From: Escherichia coli | Lineage (GTDB): Bacteria > Pseudomonadota > Gammaproteobacteria > Enterobacterales > Enterobacteriaceae | Length of the DNA stretch: 64,000 nucleotides | NCBI RefSeq assembly: GCF_003018255.1 | Contig: NZ_CP027440.1 | Strand: one strand, 5' to 3' | In this document: positions 44,528-51,900 of the stretch, one piece after another | Layout of the letters: each line of letters opens with the position of its first letter | How positions within the stretch are numbered: the first letter of the stretch is position 1 | Position numbers and translations under genes: made by a program | Notes under the pieces: model-generated | Databases searched by the model: none | What the model was told of the DNA's origin: nothing | What the model saw: the letters and a program-made list of their open reading frames with translations, nothing else

Positions 44528-45460
44528 ATGAGTAAGAAAATTGTTCTCGCCCTGGGCGGGAATGCGCTGGGCGATGACCTGGCCGGACAAATGAAAGCGG
44601 TAAAAATTACTTCTCAGGCAATTGTTGATTTAATTGCCCAGGGACATGAAGTTATCGTCACTCACGGTAACGGGCCACAGGTGGGCATGATTAACCAGGC
44701 CTTTGAAGCTGCCGCAAAAACTGAAGCGCACTCGCCAATGCTGCCGATGTCTGTCTGTGTTGCCTTAAGCCAGGGTTATATTGGTTACGATCTACAAAAC
44801 GCATTAAGAGAAGAACTGCTTTCTCGTGGCATTAATAAACCTGTAGCAACGCTGGTTACCCAGGTCGAAGTCGATGCTAACGACCCGGCATTCCTCAACC
44901 CGACCAAGCCGATCGGTTCGTTCTTTACCGAGCAGGAAGCAGAGCAACTGACAAAACAGGGTTACACTCTGAAAGAAGATGCTGGTCGCGGCTATCGCCG
45001 TGTTGTTGCCTCGCCGAAACCGGTTGATATTATTGAAAAAGAGACGGTAAAAGCGCTGGTAGAAGCAGGCCAGGTAGTGATCACCGTTGGCGGTGGTGGC
45101 ATTCCCGTTATTCGTGAAGGGAACCATCTGCGCGGTGCCAGTGCGGTTATCGATAAAGACTGGGCCAGCGCCCGTTTAGCAGAAATGATTGATGCCGATA
45201 TGCTGATCATTCTGACTGCGGTAGAAAAAGTGGCCATTAACTTCGGTAAAGAGAATGAACAGTGGCTCGATCGCCTGTCATTAAGTGATGCTGAACGCTT
45301 TATCGAAGAAGGTCATTTTGCGAAAGGTTCTATGCTGCCTAAAGTGGAAGCTGCCGCCTCGTTTGCTCGCTCTCGCGCAGGTCGTGAAGCACTGATTACC
45401 GTATTGAGCAAAGCGAAAGAAGGGATTGAAGGCAAAACCGGAACGGTGATTTGTCAGTAA
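44528..45460 (+). CDS. yqeA: Carbamate kinase-like protein
   Basis: 310 aa; amino-acid-kinase family N-terminus KIVLALGGNAL. Confidence 0.9.
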   Translation: MSKKIVLALGGNALGDDLAGQMKAVKITSQAIVDLIAQGHEVIVTHGNGPQVGMINQAFEAAAKTEAHSPMLPMSVCVALSQGYIGYDLQNALREELLSRGINKPVATLVTQVEVDANDPAFLNPTKPIGSFFTEQEAEQLTKQGYTLKEDAGRGYRRVVASPKPVDIIEKETVKALVEAGQVVITVGGGGIPVIREGNHLRGASAVIDKDWASARLAEMIDADMLIILTAVEKVAINFGKENEQWLDRLSLSDAERFIEEGHFAKGSMLPKVEAAASFARSRAGREALITVLSKAKEGIEGKTGTVICQ

Positions 45461-45466
45461 TTTAAA

Positions 45467-45502
45467 GGCCGGGTGGGTAATACCATCCGGCCATTTTCAT
45501 TT
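45467..45502. terminator. Bidirectional terminator between convergent yqeA and yqeB
   Basis: Hairpin GGCCGGGTGG ... CCATCCGGCC followed by ATTTTCATTT. Confidence 0.6.
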
Positions 45503-47126
45503 AAGCCACTTCCAGCACTTCTTTCGTCGCTTTAACGCCCTGATGCATCAACATCATTAACGCCTCAAGTACGCCGCCGCCAATCGCCCGGGCTTTATCA
45601 GAAACGCTGGTGAAATCAGCCGTTTCACCACGAGGATCGATATCACCAATTTTAAAACCACCGACCACTGCCAGTCCGTCGTTCAACAAGCCACGCACCA
45701 TCCCCGTCAACGGTGCTTTAATTTCATGCTCACCAATCCAGGCAATCACATCGCCCTCTTTCACCAGATCGCCTAATTTCACGTTGGATCGCATAATGCC
45801 TGCAGCAGGAGCACGGATCACCCGTCGGGTGGTATGCCCCATAATATTGCCAGGAACACCGGTATTCTCCTGCGCACAACCAGAGTAAATCACCTGACCG
45901 AGCCAGTGCCCGCGATTTGTTTCAATTACCGCATGACAATCCTTCCCTGCAGTAAAGCCCGGCCCAAGCGCGATTGTTACTGGTGCCATATCTGCCCGCG
46001 TCCCCAAATTCTGTTTCGCCAGAATAGCGTCCACCACGCAAAGCGGTTTCAGTTCATCAAGCAATGAACAGGCGGGATCTACTATCACAGGGATGAATCC
46101 GCATTCGGTAAGTTTCATCGCCTCCGCAGAGCTGGTTGCCAGGCGGGCGGTGACGCCTTCGACCGTCATTTCGCCATCGAACACGGCCTGGGCAAATGCC
46201 ACGGTACAACGAATCACTGTCGGTTTTTCCACTTCCAGCATGATCACTTTAAAACCCGCATGATACAGACGTAGCGCTACACCACTGGCGATATCCCCCG
46301 CACCACGAATCACCACCAGCTGGTGTCCGGAAGGATGAGAAGGCTTCATCATCAGCCCACCCGGCGCGTTATTTTTCACCTGTAATATTTCTGCCAGCAC
46401 GCTGATGGCGATCTCCTGCGGCGTTTCCGCACCTATGTTGTAACCAACGGGCGCATGTAAACGGGCAATATGTTCTTCAGCCACGCCTTTCTCACGCAAT
46501 TGGCGCAGGAAAAGCTGAACCTTGCGGCGACTTGCCAGCAACCCCAGCCATGCAATGGGTTGTTCAATGAGTTTGTCGAGGGCTTCACGATCCTGATTAT
46601 TCGTGGCAATCAGGACAAAATTATCAGGGCGAATATCCAGTGCTTCCACTGCCGCACCAAACGACTCAGCATGGAGAAGCGTGGTTGATGGTGGGAATAG
46701 TTCAGGATTGAGGCTTTCGCGATAAATATCGGCAACGGCGATATCAAATCCTAATAGCGCCGCACTCTGGGCTATCGCCCGGTTGACATGCCCCGCGCCA
46801 ATCAACACCAGACGTGGACGCATACCATGGACGCTGATAAATACTGACATTGCACCTCCACAATCTGACCCGACAGCATCCGCACCGTTACGAGCCATAC
46901 GTCCATGGAATAATCGCGGCTTACGTTCCTGCAATGCCTGAAGCGACTCTTCAATCACCTTCCGCTCAACCATTCCGCCACCAATTGTACCGACGATAGA
47001 GCCATCGGCGCGCACTAACATTTGTGCAGAATGGCGGGGGGTTGAGCCTCGGCTATCAACAATTTGCGCCATCGCAAACGGACAATTTTGCTCTTCGAGT
47101 TTTGCAGCCTCTGTGAAAATATTCAT
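45501..47126 (-). CDS. yqeB: YqeB-family accessory protein of selenium-dependent molybdenum hydroxylases (XdhC/CoxI-like)
   Basis: 541 aa with XdhC/CoxI-like and Rossmann-like regions (LIGAGHV). Confidence 0.85.
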   Translation of the reverse strand: MNIFTEAAKLEEQNCPFAMAQIVDSRGSTPRHSAQMLVRADGSIVGTIGGGMVERKVIEESLQALQERKPRLFHGRMARNGADAVGSDCGGAMSVFISVHGMRPRLVLIGAGHVNRAIAQSAALLGFDIAVADIYRESLNPELFPPSTTLLHAESFGAAVEALDIRPDNFVLIATNNQDREALDKLIEQPIAWLGLLASRRKVQLFLRQLREKGVAEEHIARLHAPVGYNIGAETPQEIAISVLAEILQVKNNAPGGLMMKPSHPSGHQLVVIRGAGDIASGVALRLYHAGFKVIMLEVEKPTVIRCTVAFAQAVFDGEMTVEGVTARLATSSAEAMKLTECGFIPVIVDPACSLLDELKPLCVVDAILAKQNLGTRADMAPVTIALGPGFTAGKDCHAVIETNRGHWLGQVIYSGCAQENTGVPGNIMGHTTRRVIRAPAAGIMRSNVKLGDLVKEGDVIAWIGEHEIKAPLTGMVRGLLNDGLAVVGGFKIGDIDPRGETADFTSVSDKARAIGGGVLEALMMLMHQGVKATKEVLEVA

Positions 47127-47173
47127 ACCAACCTCAATGGATATCCTTTCAGTAACCCGGAATACCCGGGCCG

Positions 47174-47944
47174 CTAATTCACAAATCTGCGCGCGATTGC
47201 AGGATGTTCTTGTATATCGCCCAGCCAGATTGCCTCTACGTCGTGTTGTTGCAGCGGTTGAAGGAGCTCGCTTTGCGCAATCGCATTCTCACATTGAGAA
47301 AAACGGTTAATGAACCAGACTCGCCGACAACCTTGCGGTACGTTTTTAAACGCCCCCTGAGGGTGGCGAACCAGCGCAACGAGATCGCTCAGTTGCAAGG
47401 TTGCATCAGGTGTTAACCCGGTAATATCAGCAAACTGCGACCAGCGATGGACATTTTCTGTGCTCACTTTCGCACCCAAAATATGTCCTCCCATCACAGC
47501 AATCACGCAGCAACTGCTTTTAGGTATGCAAGGTTCGTGCTCATCAGGCGCTTTTAACGGCATTCCACGCGAGCCATCTGCCTCAATGAGAATTACGTCA
47601 CACTCTGATCGTTGTACCAGTGCATCAATCGCTTCTGGCGTAAATCCCTGCACTTTTCCCTGGTTCGCTTTCCAGCTGTGAAAACAAAATGAAATGGGGG
47701 ATATAAAAGACGCATGAGGAAGCATGGCGGGATCACGACAGAAAACCACGGGCCAGTGAGATGTTGGCATAAACATATGTGTCGTCGTAGTGATTAATAC
47801 ACGCCTGCCGCTCGCCTGGAACAGTTCTGCCAGCCAAAAAAGCAAGCTGGTTTTCCCCCCAGCACCAACAACAGAAATCACAGTGGGACGTTTCTGCGCG
47901 CCTAAATCAATGAATAATGCCGATGGGTCAATTATACTTTTCAC
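47174..47944 (-). CDS. yqeC: YqeC-family accessory protein with P-loop-like motif
   Basis: 256 aa; motif VVGAGGKTS near the N-terminus; directly downstream of yqeB. Confidence 0.85.
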   Translation of the reverse strand: MKSIIDPSALFIDLGAQKRPTVISVVGAGGKTSLLFWLAELFQASGRRVLITTTTHMFMPTSHWPVVFCRDPAMLPHASFISPISFCFHSWKANQGKVQGFTPEAIDALVQRSECDVILIEADGSRGMPLKAPDEHEPCIPKSSCCVIAVMGGHILGAKVSTENVHRWSQFADITGLTPDATLQLSDLVALVRHPQGAFKNVPQGCRRVWFINRFSQCENAIAQSELLQPLQQHDVEAIWLGDIQEHPAIARRFVN

Positions 47945-48047
47945 GCGTCTTTATGGACCTCTCTGGGATAAATTACCCTCAACTTAATCCATCAGGAAGT
48001 AACGCAATTATCAGGCGTTATTAGCTCCTGTAAATAATGGAATCACT

Positions 48048-48626
48048 ATGTCAGCCATCGACTGTATAATTACCGCCGCAGGATTATCATCAAGAATGGG
48101 GCAATGGAAAATGATGTTACCCTGGCAACAGGGAACAATTCTTGATACAAGTATCAAAAATGCGTTGCAGTTTTGTAGCCGAATTATTTTAGTCACCGGC
48201 TATCGTGGTAATGAACTGCACGAACGTTATGCGAACCAGAGCAATATCACTATTATCCACAACCCAGATTATGCGCAGGGTTTACTGACATCAGTAAAGG
48301 CCGCAGTACCCGCGGTGCAAACAGAACATTGTTTTCTCACCCACGGAGATATGCCAACCCTCACCATCGATATTTTTAGAAAAATCTGGTCGTTACGAAA
48401 TGATGGCGCAATACTGCCACTCCATAATGGCATCCCCGGCCATCCGATTTTAGTGTCAAAACCATGCCTGATGCAGGCAATCCAGCGACCCAATGTCACC
48501 AATATGCGTCAGGCACTCCTTATGGGAGAACATTATTCCGTCGAAATAGAAAATGCAGAAATAATTTTAGATATTGATACTCCTGACGACTTTATTACAG
48601 CGAAGAAAAGGTATACTGAAATTTAG
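48048..48626 (+). CDS. ygfJ: Molybdenum cofactor cytidylyltransferase (MobA-like)
   Basis: 192 aa; nucleotidyltransferase N-terminus IDCIITAAGLSSRMG. Confidence 0.88.
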   Translation: MSAIDCIITAAGLSSRMGQWKMMLPWQQGTILDTSIKNALQFCSRIILVTGYRGNELHERYANQSNITIIHNPDYAQGLLTSVKAAVPAVQTEHCFLTHGDMPTLTIDIFRKIWSLRNDGAILPLHNGIPGHPILVSKPCLMQAIQRPNVTNMRQALLMGEHYSVEIENAEIILDIDTPDDFITAKKRYTEI

Positions 48627-48780
48627 AAAACGTAGTTAAACGATTGCGTTCAAATATTTAATCCCTCCAGCACTCTTTATCATAATGATAAGGAATCACT
48701 GATTTTGAGAAAAGAGAAAAAGTGATAAATGGGCTGGCAATAATAATTTTCAGGAGTGATTTTAATTCTCATTTGGCACC

Positions 48781-48796
48781 TGTGAGTTCATTCACA
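48781..48796 (+). promoter_or_regulatory. Candidate CRP binding site upstream of ygfK
   Basis: TGTGAgttcatTCACA, both CRP half-sites with 6-bp spacer, about 150 bp upstream of ygfK. Confidence 0.45.
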
Positions 48797-48850
48797 AAAA
48801 GCCATTAAGTTTCGAGCCGCCTCACATTTTTTTATATTTCCCGCCAAACC

Positions 48851-48866
48851 TGGCAAGAGTGGTGCG
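48851..48866 (+). promoter_or_regulatory. Candidate sigma-54 promoter upstream of ygfK
   Basis: TGGCAA-GAGTG-GTGCG with GG-N10-GC spacing, about 83 bp upstream of ygfK. Confidence 0.35.
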
Positions 48867-48947
48867 ATTGTTGCTCTATCCCCCTAAACCACCGGATTTC
48901 TCAACACCGGTCACTCAATGATATCTGTATAAGCTAAGGAGAGGGTT

Positions 48948-51900
48948 ATGGGGGATATTATGCGTCCCATTCCGTTTGAGGAACTTTTGACGCGCATATT
49001 TGATGAATACCAACAACAACGCTCAATCTTTGGTATTCCCGAGCAACAGTTTTACTCACCCGTAAAAGGTAAAACTGTTAGCGTCTTCGGTGAAACCTGT
49101 GCCACTCCCGTCGGCCCTGCCGCTGGCCCGCACACGCAGCTCGCGCAAAATATTGTCACTTCCTGGCTGACTGGCGGACGCTTCATCGAACTAAAAACCG
49201 TCCAAATTCTTGACCGCCTGGAGCTGGAAAAGCCCTGTATCGATGCCGAAGACGAGTGCTTTAACACCGAATGGTCTACCGAATTTACCCTGCTTAAAGC
49301 CTGGGATGAATACCTCAAAGCCTGGTTTGCCCTGCACCTTCTCGAAGCGATGTTCCAGCCTTCTGATTCCTGTAAATCGTTCATCTTTAATATGAGCGTC
49401 GGTTACAACCTCGAAGGTATTAAGCAACCGCCGATGCAGCAGTTCATCGACAATATGATGGACGCATCTGACCATCCGAAATTCGCTCAATACCGCGATG
49501 CACTTAATAAGCTACTCCAGGATGACGCATTTTTAGCCCGCCACGGCTTACAGGAAAAACGCGAAAGCTTGCAAGCCTTACCCGCTCGCATCCCCACCAG
49601 CATGGTACAAGGGGTTACCCTCTCCACCATGCACGGCTGTCCTCCGCATGAAATCGAAGCCATTTGCCGCTACATGCTGGAAGAAAAAGGGCTCAACACC
49701 TTTGTGAAACTCAACCCGACCTTACTGGGGTACGCGCGTGTTCGTGAGATCCTCGATGTCTGCGGTTTCGGTTACATCGGCTTAAAAGAAGAGTCATTTG
49801 ATCACGACCTCAAGCTGACGCAAGCACTGGAAATGCTGGAACGCCTGATGGCACTGGCAAAAGAAAAATCACTCGGCTTTGGCGTAAAACTGACTAACAC
49901 TCTCGGCACCATTAATAACAAAGGCGCACTGCCCGGTGAAGAGATGTATATGTCAGGCCGTGCGCTGTTCCCGCTCTCCATCAACGTTGCAGCAGTTCTC
50001 TCTCGCGCCTTTGACGGCAAACTGCCCATTTCTTATTCCGGTGGTGCCAGTCAGCTGACTATCCGCGATATTTTTGATACTGGTATTCGCCCTATTACTA
50101 TGGCAACCGACCTGCTGAAACCTGGCGGCTATCTGCGCTTAAGTGCCTGCATGCGCGAGCTGGAAGGCTCAGATGCCTGGGAGCTTAACCACGTTGACGT
50201 CGAACGACTGAACAGACTGGCAGCAGACGCGTTAACCATGGAATACACCCAGAAACACTGGAAGCCAGAAGAGCGTATTGAAGTGGCTGAAGACCTGCCG
50301 CTGACCGATTGCTACGTTGCCCCCTGTGTTACTGCCTGCGCTATCAAGCAAGATATTCCGGAATACATCCGTCTGCTTGGCGAACACCGCTATGCCGACG
50401 CGCTGGAACTCATCTATCAACGCAACGCCCTGCCCGCCATTACCGGTCATATTTGCGATCACCAGTGCCAATACAACTGTACCCGCCTGGATTACGACAG
50501 TGCGCTGAATATCCGCGAACTGAAAAAAGTCGCGCTGGAAAAAGGTTGGGATGAATATAAGCAACGCTGGCACAAACCAGCCGGTTCTGGTTCACGCCAT
50601 CCGGTTGCCGTGATTGGTGCAGGTCCGGCGGGTCTGGCAGCAGGTTACTTCCTTGCCAGAGCGGGCCATCCGGTTACGCTGTTTGAACGCGAAGCCAATG
50701 CGGGCGGCGTGGTGAAAAATATCATTCCTCAGTTCCGTATTCCTGCAGAGTTAATTCAGCACGATATCGATTTTGTTGCCGCTCACGGCGTAAAATTTGA
50801 GTATGGCTGCTCACCGGATCTGACCGTTGAACAGTTAAAAAATCAGGGCTTCCACTATGTTCTGATTGCCACCGGCACTGATAAAAATAGCGGTGTGAAA
50901 CTGGCGGGCGACAACCAAAATGTCTGGAAATCACTCCCCTTCCTGCGTGAATACAACAAGGGCACAGCGCTCAAGCTGGGCAAACATGTGGTCGTTGTCG
51001 GGGCGGGTAACACGGCAATGGACTGCGCTCGTGCGGCGTTACGCGTTCCAGGCGTAGAAAAAGCAACGGTCGTTTACCGTCGTTCACTGCAAGAGATGCC
51101 AGCATGGCGCGAAGAGTATGAAGAAGCGTTGCACGACGGCGTGGAGTTCCGTTTCCTGAATAATCCGGAACGTTTCGATGCTGATGGCACCTTAACCTTG
51201 CGCGTTATGTCGCTTGGCGAACCTGATGAGAAAGGTCGTCGCCGTCCGGTTGAAACCAACGAAACAGTAACACTGCATGTAGACAGCCTGATCACCGCCA
51301 TTGGTGAACAGCAGGATACTGAAGCCCTGAATGCGATGGGCGTGCCGCTGGACAAAAACGGCTGGCCAGACGTCGACCATAATGGCGAAACGCGTCTGAG
51401 TGACGTCTTTATGATCGGCGACGTACAGCGCGGACCATCCTCCATTGTCGCTGCTGTCGGAACCGCGCGTCGGGCGACCGATGCCATCCTGAGTCGGGAA
51501 AATATCCGTTCCCACCAGAACGATAAATACTGGAATAACGTCAATCCGGCGGAAATCTATCAACGTAAAGGCGATATCTCTGTCACTCTGGTGAACAGTG
51601 ACGATCGTGACGCGTTTGTCGCGCAGGAAGCCGCTCGCTGCCTTGAATGTAACTACGTTTGCAGCAAGTGTGTGGATGTCTGCCCGAACCGCGCCAACGT
51701 ATCCATTGCGGTCCCAGGCTTCCAGAACCGTTTCCAGACGCTGCATCTCGACGCCTACTGCAACGAATGCGGCAACTGCGCCCAATTCTGCCCGTGGAAC
51801 GGTAAACCGTACAAAGACAAAATCACCGTCTTCAGCCTGTCGCAAGACTTTGATAACAGCAGCAACCCAGGCTTCCTTGTGGAAGATTGCCGGGTACGCG

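What the first reader, a model, noticed from the sequence alone, without database searches (positions are those of the whole stretch)
45501..48626. Divergent yqeB-yqeC and ygfJ: candidate Mo-cofactor maturation module embedded in the cluster
YqeB (XdhC/CoxI-like), YqeC (P-loop-like VVGAGGKTS) and the MobA-like cytidylyltransferase YgfJ sit between the two catabolic operons, suggesting dedicated cofactor insertion or modification for XdhD and related enzymes. YqeB and YqeC families have been bioinformatically linked to selenium-dependent molybdenum hydroxylases, but their biochemical function is unknown.
Basis: partly seen in the sequence, partly recalled or inferred. Interest (0 to 1): 0.55.

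Follow-up and report, generated by a model that had tools for sequence, protein, structure and literature searches.

The report
E. coli selenium-molybdenum cofactor maturation genes
These are the already annotated E. coli genes yqeB, yqeC and mocA, which most likely build, add selenium to and insert the molybdenum cofactor of the neighbouring purine and uric-acid enzymes; the genes and this idea are published, but how YqeB and YqeC work chemically is still unknown.

Summary
Window 45501-48626 holds yqeB (-), yqeC (-) and ygfJ/mocA (+) of E. coli, and the stretch is present in 5157 of 5426 complete genomes. All three proteins pass NCBI's curated family cut-offs.

RefSeq already names the genes this way. 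Haft & Self (2008) proposed the role, MocA is a characterised CTP:molybdopterin cytidylyltransferase, and C. difficile yqeB deletion phenocopies selD loss.

- **YqeB** is a fusion of an XdhC chaperone domain and the selenium-linked TIGR03309 domain. That domain models as a Rossmann-like part plus a biotinyl-like barrel without the modifiable lysine.
- **YqeC** is a SIMIBI-class P-loop NTPase.
- **Fusions** link the four domains in many combinations: XdhC-YqeB, MocA-YqeB, YqeC-YqeB, YqeC-MocA and YqeC-MocA-YqeB. The genes form one block in 71 of 80 species.
- **No conserved cysteine** is found in either unknown protein, which argues against a cysteine relay for selenium.
- **A sigma-54 promoter** inside yqeC, which drives yqeB, overlaps YqeC's most conserved motif. 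It is held at synonymous sites across Gammaproteobacteria.

Verdict: a known module whose mechanism remains open. Interest 0.33.

The parts
45501..47126 (-). yqeB CDS (541 aa), a two-family fusion protein
   Evidence: ORF. RefSeq annotates it as 'selenium-dependent molybdenum cofactor biosynthesis protein YqeB'. It differs from K-12 YqeB at 2 residues.
46386..47093 (-). YqeB N-terminal XdhC-like chaperone domain (residues 12-247), including the CGG motif at C89
   Evidence: Pfam XdhC_CoxI (1e-19) and XdhC_C (1e-32). PDB matches 2we7 and 3on5. It scores below the equivalog cut-offs of TIGR02964 and NF045664.
45549..46316 (-). YqeB C-terminal TIGR03309 (EF2563) domain, residues 271-526: a Rossmann-like part, then a biotinyl-like barrel (about residues 433-501), then a long C-terminal helix
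47174..47944 (-). yqeC CDS (256 aa, GTG start), a SIMIBI-class P-loop NTPase
47846..47866 (-). Walker A motif GAGGKTS (YqeC residues 27-33)
   Evidence: Read from the sequence. G27, G29, G30 and K31 are 98% conserved in 199 YqeC domains.
47573..47584 (-). Walker-B-like EADG motif (YqeC residues 121-124)
   Evidence: E121 and D123 are 100% and G124 is 99% conserved in 199 domains.
47527..47543 (-). Intragenic sigma-54 promoter (TGAGCACGAACCTTGCA) that drives yqeB; it overlaps yqeC codons 134-140 (DEHEPCI)
   Evidence: [quoted passage not shown] Synonymous sites are held in 35 gammaproteobacterial species: Pro138 is CCT in 34/35, against 5/35 at Pro133.
48007..48034 (-). Sigma-70-like promoter candidate for yqeC (TTTACA-16-GATAAT)
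   Evidence: Consensus scan only, 10 of 12 matches. The number of such sites in the region is no higher than in shuffles.
48048..48626 (+). mocA (ygfJ) CDS, 192 aa, CTP:molybdopterin cytidylyltransferase
   Evidence: TIGR03310 216 bits against a cut-off of 186. Pfam NTP_transf_3. It differs from K-12 MocA at 3 residues. TAAG (9-12) and GLLTS (78-82) are visible in the sequence. The K-12 enzyme is characterised (Neumann 2009, as cited).
45467..45492 (.). GC-rich hairpin between the convergent genes yqeA/arcC and yqeB, a likely bidirectional terminator
   Evidence: Terminator-like site with a 10-bp stem, 8 of them GC pairs. The hairpin is duplicated around a 180-bp insertion in K-12.
48859..48875 (+). 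Sigma-54 promoter of the downstream ygfK-ssnA-ygfM-xdhD operon (context only)
   Evidence: GTGGTGCGATTGTTGCT is listed as the ygfK site OS31 in Bonocora 2015 and was located in the window.

Best explanation
The three genes encode a four-domain assembly line that makes and delivers the selenium-bearing molybdopterin cytosine dinucleotide (MCD) cofactor. The clients are the cluster's xanthine-oxidase-family enzymes: XdhD-YgfM, which reduces urate to isoxanthine, and probably XdhABC.

1. **MocA** adds CMP from CTP to Mo-molybdopterin, giving MCD. This step is shown for the K-12 enzyme.
2. **The XdhC-like N-terminal half of YqeB** takes up MCD and protects it. This is inferred by analogy with PaoD, which receives MCD from MocA, and with R. 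capsulatus XdhC.
3. **The C-terminal TIGR03309 half of YqeB** replaces the equatorial oxo (or sulfido) ligand of Mo with selenium while the cofactor sits on the chaperone. It most likely uses SelD-made selenophosphate directly, bound by its invariant Arg/Lys cluster, not a cysteine perselenide relay. This step is inferred.
4. **YqeC**, a SIMIBI-class P-loop NTPase, couples or gates the MocA-to-YqeB hand-off, or the release into the apo-enzyme, by nucleotide hydrolysis. This would resemble what MobB, MeaB, UreG and HypB do for other cofactors. It is inferred and is the least secure step.
5. **The loaded XdhC domain** inserts the finished cofactor into the apo-hydroxylase. This is inferred.

Expression of YqeB is set separately from YqeC by a sigma-54 promoter inside yqeC. 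This is shown in K-12.
For: **Identity.** Curated HMMs are passed for all three proteins, with matching Pfam domains.

**MocA.** Its activity and the MocA-to-PaoD hand-off are reported in the literature quoted.

**Physical coupling of the four domains.**
- Among the best 150 cluster representatives of the TIGR03309 domain: 28 are fused to XdhC, 23 to MocA, 9 to YqeC and 2 are YqeC-MocA-YqeB.
- Moorella encodes a YqeC-MocA fusion in which both halves exceed the curated cut-offs.
- 119 of 120 relatives of that fusion keep both domains, with YqeC always N-terminal.
- Two TIGR03309 proteins are fused to a MeaB-type GTPase instead.

**Gene order.** In 80 species, yqeC is within 300 bp of a partner gene in 71. 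All 36 gammaproteobacterial species have yqeC followed by the fused xdhC-yqeB, and a Mo hydroxylase gene lies within 10 kb in 46.

**Folds.**
- YqeC is a SIMIBI NTPase with 98-100% conserved Walker A and EADG motifs.
- The YqeB domain is Rossmann-like, with GxGxxxxG and an acidic residue at the end of strand 2, followed by a barrel-sandwich.
- Neither protein has a conserved Cys: YqeC C139 is Val in 148 of 199, and the best Cys column in the YqeB domain reaches 65% and is Phe in E. coli.

**Selenium link.**
- C. difficile yqeB deletion phenocopies selD loss on xanthine and urate.
- The C. sporogenes XdhD-type enzyme from a selD mutant is inactive.
- Family members occur in the classical selenium-dependent purinolytic clostridia.

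**Client enzyme.** E. coli XdhD-YgfM reduces urate to isoxanthine.

**Regulation.** The promoter is covered.
Against: - No selenium has been demonstrated in any E. coli molybdoenzyme. Haft & Self themselves flagged this, and the 2025 E. coli XdhD paper did not test it.
- No biochemical activity has been shown for any YqeB or YqeC protein.
- C. difficile yqeC deletion has no phenotype, so YqeC may be dispensable or redundant.
- YqeC has many invariant charged residues (K97, E121, D123, K131, E137, R167, K200, N213). That looks more like an enzyme than a simple switch.
- The selenium donor and the Cys-free transfer are inferred only from the absence of conserved Cys.
- selD is not in the window, and a crude motif search did not find it near yqeC in the 80 loci.
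Confidence: 0.55

Rival explanations
1. YqeC is not a selenium protein. It is the dedicated NTPase partner of MocA, the counterpart of MobB for MobA, and acts only at MCD synthesis or hand-off. Its co-occurrence with selenium genes would then be indirect, arising because selenium-dependent hydroxylases use MCD. Selenium chemistry would reside entirely in the YqeB domain.
For: - YqeC-MocA fusions are widespread and always in the same order.
- mocA is divergent from yqeC in 33 of 36 gammaproteobacterial species.
- In C. difficile, yqeC sits next to mocA and away from yqeB, and its deletion has no phenotype while yqeB deletion does.
- From my own knowledge, mobB mutants are also nearly silent.
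- MobA-MobB fusion families exist in NCBIfam (NF011056).
Against: - Outside Gammaproteobacteria, YqeC is more often next to YqeB (25 of 44) than to MocA (16 of 44).
- YqeC-YqeB fusions without MocA exist (9 of 150).
- Holophagaceae loci have XdhC-YqeC-YqeB with no MocA nearby.
- There is no sequence-level match to MobB models.
- Published surveys use YqeC together with YqeB as the marker of the selenium trait.
Confidence: 0.3
2. YqeC is a catalytic ATP- or GTP-dependent synthetase or kinase, like the SIMIBI enzymes DTBS, PurA and CTP synthase. It would chemically activate the cofactor, for example by phosphorylating the Mo-oxo ligand or another oxygen, so that selenium can displace it. It would not be a switch or chaperone.
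For: - A dense set of invariant catalytic-type residues lies beyond the P-loop: K97, E121, D123, K131, P133, E137, P138, R167, K200 and N213.
- The P-loop form GxGGKT resembles that of Mur ligases, with weak MurE and LpxK hits.
Against: - The null phenotype in C. difficile is hard to reconcile with an obligatory chemical step.
- The selenophosphate that SelD supplies is already an activated donor.
Confidence: 0.15
3. In E. coli the module handles only the ordinary sulfurated MCD. YqeB would be the XdhC-type chaperone shared by XdhABC and XdhD, and the TIGR03309 domain and YqeC would be structural or regulatory add-ons, with no selenium in the E. coli enzymes.
For: - No labile-selenium enzyme has been shown in E. 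coli.
- Leimkuhler's group treats YqeB simply as the second XdhC homologue of E. coli.
- K-12 RefSeq still names it 'XdhC-CoxI family protein'.
- Active XdhD-YgfM was purified without reported selenium supplementation.
Against: - The TIGR03309 domain is 55-60% identical between E. coli and Moorella or spirochaetes and is restricted to selD-positive genomes.
- The orthologous clostridial enzyme needs SelD.
- E. coli has selD (b1764, table).
- From my own knowledge, rich media contain trace selenium.
Confidence: 0.12
4. The genes serve selenate or selenite reduction or detoxification, as accessory factors of the old 'selenate reductase' YgfK/YgfM/YgfN annotation, and do not mature a cofactor.
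For: RefSeq still calls YgfK 'putative selenate reductase subunit'. Haft & Self discussed this alternative.
Against: - YgfK is now shown to reduce isoxanthine, and XdhD (YgfN) to reduce urate.
- Selenate-reductase homologues do not track TIGR03309.
- The fusions to MocA and XdhC point to cofactor handling.
Confidence: 0.03

Closest known systems
XdhC-family Moco chaperones (R. capsulatus XdhC, E. coli PaoD)
   Same: The YqeB N-terminal half carries both XdhC Pfam domains and the CGG motif. PaoD receives MCD from MocA and supports ligand exchange and insertion.
   Different: YqeB scores below the equivalog cut-offs. It is fused to a second, unrelated domain: hhalign against XdhC gives 7% probability. 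XdhC and PaoD recruit a cysteine desulfurase to deliver sulfur; here the added domain tracks selD, so the element delivered is presumably selenium.
EF2563/YqeB and EF2564/YqeC of Enterococcus faecalis and C. difficile (the selenium-cofactor trait)
   Same: The same curated families, TIGR03309 and TIGR03172. The same neighbourhood of Mo hydroxylases and purine catabolism.
   Different: In Firmicutes YqeB is usually a stand-alone protein of about 265 aa, and in C. difficile the genes are dispersed. In E. coli and other Gammaproteobacteria YqeB is fused to XdhC and has its own intragenic sigma-54 promoter.
MobA-MobB (guanylyltransferase plus P-loop adaptor for bis-MGD)
   Same: A MobA-type nucleotidyltransferase (MocA) paired with, and in many lineages fused to, a small SIMIBI P-loop protein. 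The NTPase partner has a mild or null mutant phenotype (for MobB, my own knowledge).
G3E and other SIMIBI cofactor-delivery NTPases (MeaB, UreG, HypB, CooC)
   Different: YqeC has no G3E sequence signature and no CxCC or His metal site. Its nucleotide specificity is unknown.
Eukaryotic Moco sulfurase (ABA3/HMCS: NifS-like plus MOSC domains)
   Same: A protein that holds Moco on one domain while another domain exchanges the terminal chalcogen ligand before insertion into xanthine-oxidase-family enzymes (my own knowledge).
   Different: The folds are unrelated: no NifS or MOSC hits appear. The sulfurase uses a cysteine persulfide, whereas YqeB has no conserved Cys.
Biotinyl/lipoyl carrier domains (BCCP)
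   Same: YqeB residues about 433-501 superpose on BCCP with rmsd 1.0 A over 63 residues at 32% identity. Johnstone & Self noted 29% identity of C. difficile YqeB to AccB.
   Different: The hairpin that carries the modified Lys (E-A-M-K-M) is shortened and not conserved in YqeB (manual alignment; consensus). The domain is therefore an unmodified barrel-sandwich, as in AstE/AspA enzymes and HlyD adaptors.

Membership tests
TIGR03309 (YqeB/EF2563, selenium-dependent Mo hydroxylase system protein) | Full-length match to the curated HMM above its cut-off | tested here: met
   414.5 bits against a cut-off of 220; residues 271-526 cover profile positions 1-256.
TIGR03309 (YqeB/EF2563) | Found only in genomes that carry selD | not tested
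   selD is outside the window. E. coli selD = b1764 according to the table in Haft & Self.
TIGR03309 (YqeB/EF2563) | Located in an extended Mo-hydroxylase locus | tested here: met
   xdhABC and xdhD-ygfM lie within 15 kb. A Mo hydroxylase gene lies within 10 kb in 46 of 80 species loci.
XdhC/CoxI chaperone family | XdhC_CoxI N-domain plus XdhC_C Rossmann domain | tested here: met
   PF02625 9.8e-20 (residues 12-74) and PF13478 1.2e-32 (residues 106-247). PDB 2we7 3.6e-27.
XdhC/CoxI chaperone family | Equivalog-level membership (TIGR02964 XdhC or NF045664 AOR maturation factor) | tested here: not met
   110.6 bits against a cut-off of 161.6, and 201.7 against 350. It is a family member but not an orthologue of the characterised chaperones.
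XdhC/CoxI chaperone family | Binds Moco or MCD and is needed for its insertion | not testable with these tools
   Needs purified protein and cofactor assays.
TIGR03172 / PF19842 (YqeC) | HMM match above the cut-off | tested here: met
   237.6 bits against a cut-off of 73. PF19842 5.4e-42.
SIMIBI-class P-loop NTPases | Fold similarity, with a Walker A Lys and a Walker B acidic residue followed by Gly | tested here: met
SIMIBI-class P-loop NTPases | Nucleotide binding and hydrolysis, and nucleotide-dependent dimerisation | not testable with these tools
   Biochemical. N213-x-x-[D/E] at the G4-equivalent position in 132 of 199 domains (Ser in E. coli) is only a hint of guanine preference.
MobB | Sequence match to MobB models | tested here: not met
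TIGR03310 MocA (Mo cofactor cytidylyltransferase) | HMM above the cut-off, plus the MobA-like NTP transferase fold | tested here: met
   215.9 bits against a cut-off of 186.45. PF12804 2e-28. PDB MobA and MocA-related proteins.
TIGR03310 MocA | CTP-specific motifs TAAG and GLLTS, in place of the corresponding guanine-specific segments of MobA (for example LAGG) | tested here: met
   T9-A-A-G12 and G78-L-L-T-S82 were read from the translation. That these motifs set the specificity is recalled from Neumann et al. 2011, a paper that is not held.
TIGR03310 MocA | CTP:Mo-MPT cytidylyltransferase activity | not testable with these tools
   Shown for K-12 MocA (Neumann 2009, cited). The window protein differs from it at 3 of 192 residues.
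Biotinyl/lipoyl carrier domain | Barrel-sandwich hybrid fold | tested here: met
Biotinyl/lipoyl carrier domain | Conserved modifiable Lys at the hairpin tip (MKM or DKA) | tested here: not met
   The hairpin region (YqeB about 462-470, GEHEIKAP) is shortened and variable in the 65-sequence alignment. It is not a carrier domain.
Sigma-54 promoter | GG-N10-GC core and in vivo dependence | tested here: inconclusive
   The E. coli site has GA in place of GG at -24 and a perfect TTGCA at -12. The identical 17-mer was validated in K-12. Other Gammaproteobacteria have GGCAC/GGCAT-N5-TTGCA. Function was not tested here.

The most novel reading that the evidence does not exclude
MocA, YqeC, the XdhC domain and the TIGR03309 domain form one physical channelling machine. 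Within it, a cysteine-free Rossmann/barrel-sandwich domain transfers selenium directly from selenophosphate onto chaperone-bound MCD (Mo=O to Mo=Se). A new SIMIBI NTPase tethered to the cytidylyltransferase gates the process. This would define a new class of selenotransferase and supply the missing enzymology of the third selenium-utilisation trait. E. coli XdhD would then be its first labile-selenium enzyme.
Probability: 0.3. Interest if true: 0.75.

Novelty: already known. Interest (0 to 1): 0.33.

Why it matters
How selenium is installed on the molybdenum cofactor is described by the field as the least understood route of biological selenium use. The enzymes concerned, urate and xanthine reductases/dehydrogenases of gut bacteria, remove about a third of human urate, which is relevant to gout.

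E. coli is the most tractable organism that carries the complete module, and an activity assay for its client enzyme XdhD-YgfM now exists. The genes and the hypothesis are not new.

The useful additions here are testable specifics:
- which domain probably does what;
- that no cysteine relay is expected;
- that YqeC is a SIMIBI NTPase physically tied to MocA in many lineages;
- a list of invariant residues to mutate;
- that YqeB expression depends on a promoter embedded in yqeC, so yqeC deletions may be polar on yqeB.

Tried and rejected
1. **Is the TIGR03309 domain a duplicated XdhC Rossmann domain?** hhalign of the 65-sequence YqeB-domain alignment against 51 XdhC domains gave 7% probability, matching only the generic strand-helix-strand. 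Rejected.
2. **Is YqeB a biotin or lipoyl carrier?** The fold matches, but the modifiable-Lys hairpin is absent. Rejected.
3. **Is YqeC a MobB family member?** There is no sequence match and only a generic fold match. It is not filed as MobB, although a MobB-like role remains possible.
4. **Is there a cysteine perselenide relay in YqeB or YqeC?** Neither has a universally conserved Cys. Judged unlikely.
6. **Are there structured RNAs in 45000-49500?** No Rfam match at E <= 1.
7. **Is there a shared upstream activator site among the xdhA, ygeW, ygfK and intragenic yqeB sigma-54 promoters?** Only one AT-rich 10-mer was shared with 1 mismatch allowed, which is not convincing. The ygfT site listed for K-12 is absent from the window in that form.
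8. **Is selD near yqeC in the 80 loci?** A crude GxGCxxK motif search found none. This is uninformative, because selenocysteine-containing SelD would be split at its UGA codon.
9. **Promoter and terminator scan.** Counts were not above shuffles. Only the hairpin at 45467-45492 and the experimentally known sigma-54 sites are retained.


Full report
**What is there.** The window is E. coli chromosome. The stretch 45301-48826 is 100% identical to strain JNE23-011, and at least 80% of it is present in 5157 of 5426 complete E. coli genomes. The stated coordinates bound three ORFs exactly:
- yqeB, 45501-47126 (-), 541 aa
- yqeC, 47174-47944 (-), 256 aa, GTG start
- ygfJ = mocA, 48048-48626 (+), 192 aa

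RefSeq names them 'selenium-dependent molybdenum cofactor biosynthesis protein YqeB', 'selenium cofactor biosynthesis protein YqeC' and 'molybdenum cofactor cytidylyltransferase'. They sit between ygeW-dpaL-ygeY-hyuA-arcC and ygfK-ssnA-ygfM-xdhD. Compared with K-12, the proteins differ at 2, 7 and 3 residues respectively.

**Family assignments.** All three pass NCBIfam curated cut-offs. TIGR03309 covers YqeB residues 271-526 (414 bits against 220). TIGR03172 covers YqeC (238 against 73). TIGR03310 covers MocA (216 against 186).

YqeB is a fusion. Residues 12-247 carry the two XdhC Pfam domains and match the solved XdhC-like proteins 2we7 and 3on5, including the CGG motif. This half falls below the equivalog cut-offs for characterised XdhC chaperones. 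The selenium-linked family is the C-terminal half.

**What is already known.**
- Haft & Self (2008) proposed TIGR03309, TIGR03172 and TIGR03310 as accessory proteins of selenium-dependent molybdenum hydroxylases. Their evidence was restriction to selD-positive genomes, clustering with hydroxylases, and frequent fusion to XdhC.
- MocA (YgfJ) is the characterised CTP:molybdopterin cytidylyltransferase. The XdhC-type chaperone PaoD receives MCD from it. From memory of the 2009 abstract, mocA is required for PaoABC, XdhABC and XdhD activity.
- In C. difficile, yqeB deletion phenocopies selD loss on xanthine and urate, while yqeC deletion has no phenotype. The authors state that no mechanism can yet be envisaged.
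- In 2025 the flanking genes were shown to encode a reductive urate pathway. E. coli XdhD-YgfM reduces urate to isoxanthine. The orthologous C. sporogenes enzyme is inactive when purified from a selD mutant.
- Bonocora et al. (2015) showed that a sigma-54 promoter inside yqeC drives yqeB. YqeB protein was undetectable when the promoter was mutated.

**New analysis 1: domain fusions and gene order.** A search of 1.84 billion representative proteins with the TIGR03309 domain gave 3247 hits. Among the best 150, classified with the E. coli and Moorella domains:
- 28 are fused to XdhC
- 23 are fused to MocA
- 9 are fused to YqeC
- 2 are YqeC-MocA-YqeB triple fusions

Others are fused to a MeaB-type G3E GTPase (two, in both orders) or to a ModC-like ABC ATPase.

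In Moorella thermoacetica the gene next to yqeB encodes YqeC(14-227)-MocA(262-448), with both halves above the curated cut-offs. Of the best 120 relatives of that protein, 119 keep both Pfam domains, down to 35% identity. They occur in Moorellaceae, Thermanaeromonas, other Clostridia and Anaerolineae, and YqeC is always N-terminal.

A scan of one genome per species returned 80 yqeC loci from many phyla.
- All 36 gammaproteobacterial loci have yqeC followed by the fused xdhC-yqeB. In 33 of them mocA is divergent, as in the window.
- In the other 44, YqeC is within 300 bp of YqeB in 25, of MocA in 16 and of XdhC in 7.
- Seven loci show no partner gene.

The four domains therefore behave as one functional and probably physical unit.

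**New analysis 2: structures.** Both unknowns gave confident AlphaFold models, with pLDDT 94.3 and 93.0. Neither family has a solved structure.

The TIGR03309 domain has three parts.
- A Rossmann-like part carries G275-x-G277-x4-G282 and an acidic residue, E298, at the end of strand 2. That is the usual ribose-binding position.
- A long C-terminal helix ends the domain.

The hairpin that carries the biotinyl-lysine is shortened and not conserved, so this is not a carrier domain. The domain is not a duplicated XdhC domain either (hhalign 7%).

Invariant residues are mostly charged: R306, K371, E402, R405, R435, R478, K492, D495 and K511. There is no conserved cysteine. The best Cys column reaches 65% and is Phe in E. 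coli.

**Most likely mechanism.**
1. MocA makes MCD (shown).
2. The XdhC half of YqeB takes up MCD, by analogy with PaoD.
3. The TIGR03309 half exchanges the terminal Mo ligand for selenium. It probably uses selenophosphate directly, because neither YqeB nor YqeC offers a conserved cysteine, and the domain has a cluster of invariant Arg/Lys residues suited to phosphate-bearing ligands (inferred).
4. YqeC uses nucleotide hydrolysis to couple or gate the hand-off between MocA and YqeB, or the release into apo-enzyme. This is the usual job of SIMIBI proteins in cofactor delivery. The YqeC-MocA fusions and the replacement of YqeC by MeaB-like fusions are consistent with it (inferred, least secure).
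5. The chaperone inserts the cofactor into XdhD and probably XdhA (inferred).

I put 0.55 on this overall scheme. The main rivals concern YqeC: a pure MocA partner unrelated to selenium (0.30), or a catalytic activating enzyme (0.15). A further rival is that E. coli itself uses only sulfur (0.12), because no labile-selenium enzyme has been demonstrated in E. coli. The old selenate-reductase reading is essentially excluded by the 2025 enzymology.

**Regulation.** The validated 17-mer TGAGCACGAACCTTGCA is present at 47527-47543 (-), 400 nt upstream of the yqeB start codon. It overlaps yqeC codons 134-140 (D-E-H-E-P-C-I), the most conserved motif of the protein.

In 35 gammaproteobacterial species the synonymous positions are held:
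- Pro138 is CCT in 34 of 35. The control prolines in the same genes give 5/35 (Pro133) and 19/35 (Pro141), and Pro138 is CCT in only 5 of 43 loci from other phyla.
- Codon 139 is TGC in 33 of 35.
- The third base of codon 135 is G in 34 of 35.

Several genera have a better -24 element (GGCAC) than E. coli (GAGCAC). The Cys139 that is specific to this clade supplies the -12 'TGC'. A practical consequence follows: yqeC deletions in E. coli will abolish YqeB unless the promoter is preserved.

A GC-rich hairpin at 45467-45492 separates the convergent yqeA and yqeB. In K-12 this hairpin is duplicated around a 180-bp repetitive insertion.

**Verdict.** The finding is real and the reading is right, but it restates existing annotation and a 2008 hypothesis that now has genetic support. 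Novelty: already known. The chemistry of YqeB and YqeC is an acknowledged open problem, and E. coli now has the assay to address it. Given that, and the concrete handles added here, I score interest at 0.33.

Noticed in passing
window 47527-47543 (-); loci L007-L054: The sigma-54 promoter for yqeB is embedded in the codons of YqeC's most conserved motif (DEHEPCI). Synonymous sites are frozen across Enterobacterales, Aeromonas, Vibrio and Photobacterium: Pro138 is CCT in 34/35 and Cys139 is TGC in 33/35. The clade-specific Cys139 (Val elsewhere) supplies the -12 element, so the amino-acid choice may be dictated by the promoter.
   Followed up: yes
P0336, P0323: Two representative proteins fuse the TIGR03309 domain to a MeaB-type G3E GTPase, one in each order. 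This may be a non-orthologous replacement of YqeC by another cofactor-delivery NTPase.
   Followed up: partly
P0432 and about 8 relatives; L002:6034-6702: Some YqeC-MocA fusions carry a third, C-terminal HAD-IIA phosphatase domain. In Moorella a PpaX-like HAD pyrophosphatase gene overlaps the start of the xdhC gene. It could remove the pyrophosphate released by MocA.
   Followed up: partly
P0275, P0347, P0278, P0301, P0332: The TIGR03309 domain has other partners: a ModC-like molybdate ABC ATPase (one), an RNase-H-like C-terminal extension (three; also seen in AFDB entry A0A3C0WV74) and a Nudix domain (one). Their meaning is unknown, and some may be assembly or gene-calling artefacts (P0337 looks chimeric).
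   Followed up: no
window 45461-45500 compared with L087:1895-2114: K-12 has a 220-bp yqeA-yqeB spacer. The terminator-like hairpin GGCCGGGTGGGTAATACCATCCGGCC is duplicated there around a roughly 180-bp REP-like insertion. The window strain has a single hairpin and a 40-bp spacer.
   Followed up: partly
L027 (Arsenophonus endosymbiont of Aleurodicus floccissimus): The whole module looks decayed. The Mo hydroxylase, mocA, yqeC and xdhC matches are broken into several short ORF fragments, while the YqeB-domain match is still one piece.
   Followed up: no
L029, L058, L066, L071, L072, L074, L079: Seven yqeC homologues have no mocA, yqeB or xdhC within the fetched flanks. Most are from Desulfobacterota or Bilophila, and two come from loci with a full 20 kb. 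YqeC may have a second, selenium-independent context, as Zhang et al. suspected.
   Followed up: no
L051, L052, L053, L075 (Holophagaceae): A distinct gene order: Mo hydroxylase, xdhC, yqeC, yqeB, with no mocA in the locus. Here YqeC is sandwiched between the chaperone and the selenium domain, which argues against a purely MocA-directed role.
   Followed up: partly
window 48627-48947: The 321-bp AT-rich (about 38-40% GC) spacer between mocA and ygfK contains the published ygfK sigma-54 site at 48859-48875. A second, overlapping GG-N10-GC match (TGGCAAGAGTGGTGCG) lies about 8 bp upstream.
   Followed up: no
window 46103 region (YqeB residue 342): This strain has Cys at YqeB position 342 where K-12 has Arg. 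The column is not conserved (2% Cys in the family alignment), so the change is probably neutral.
   Followed up: yes
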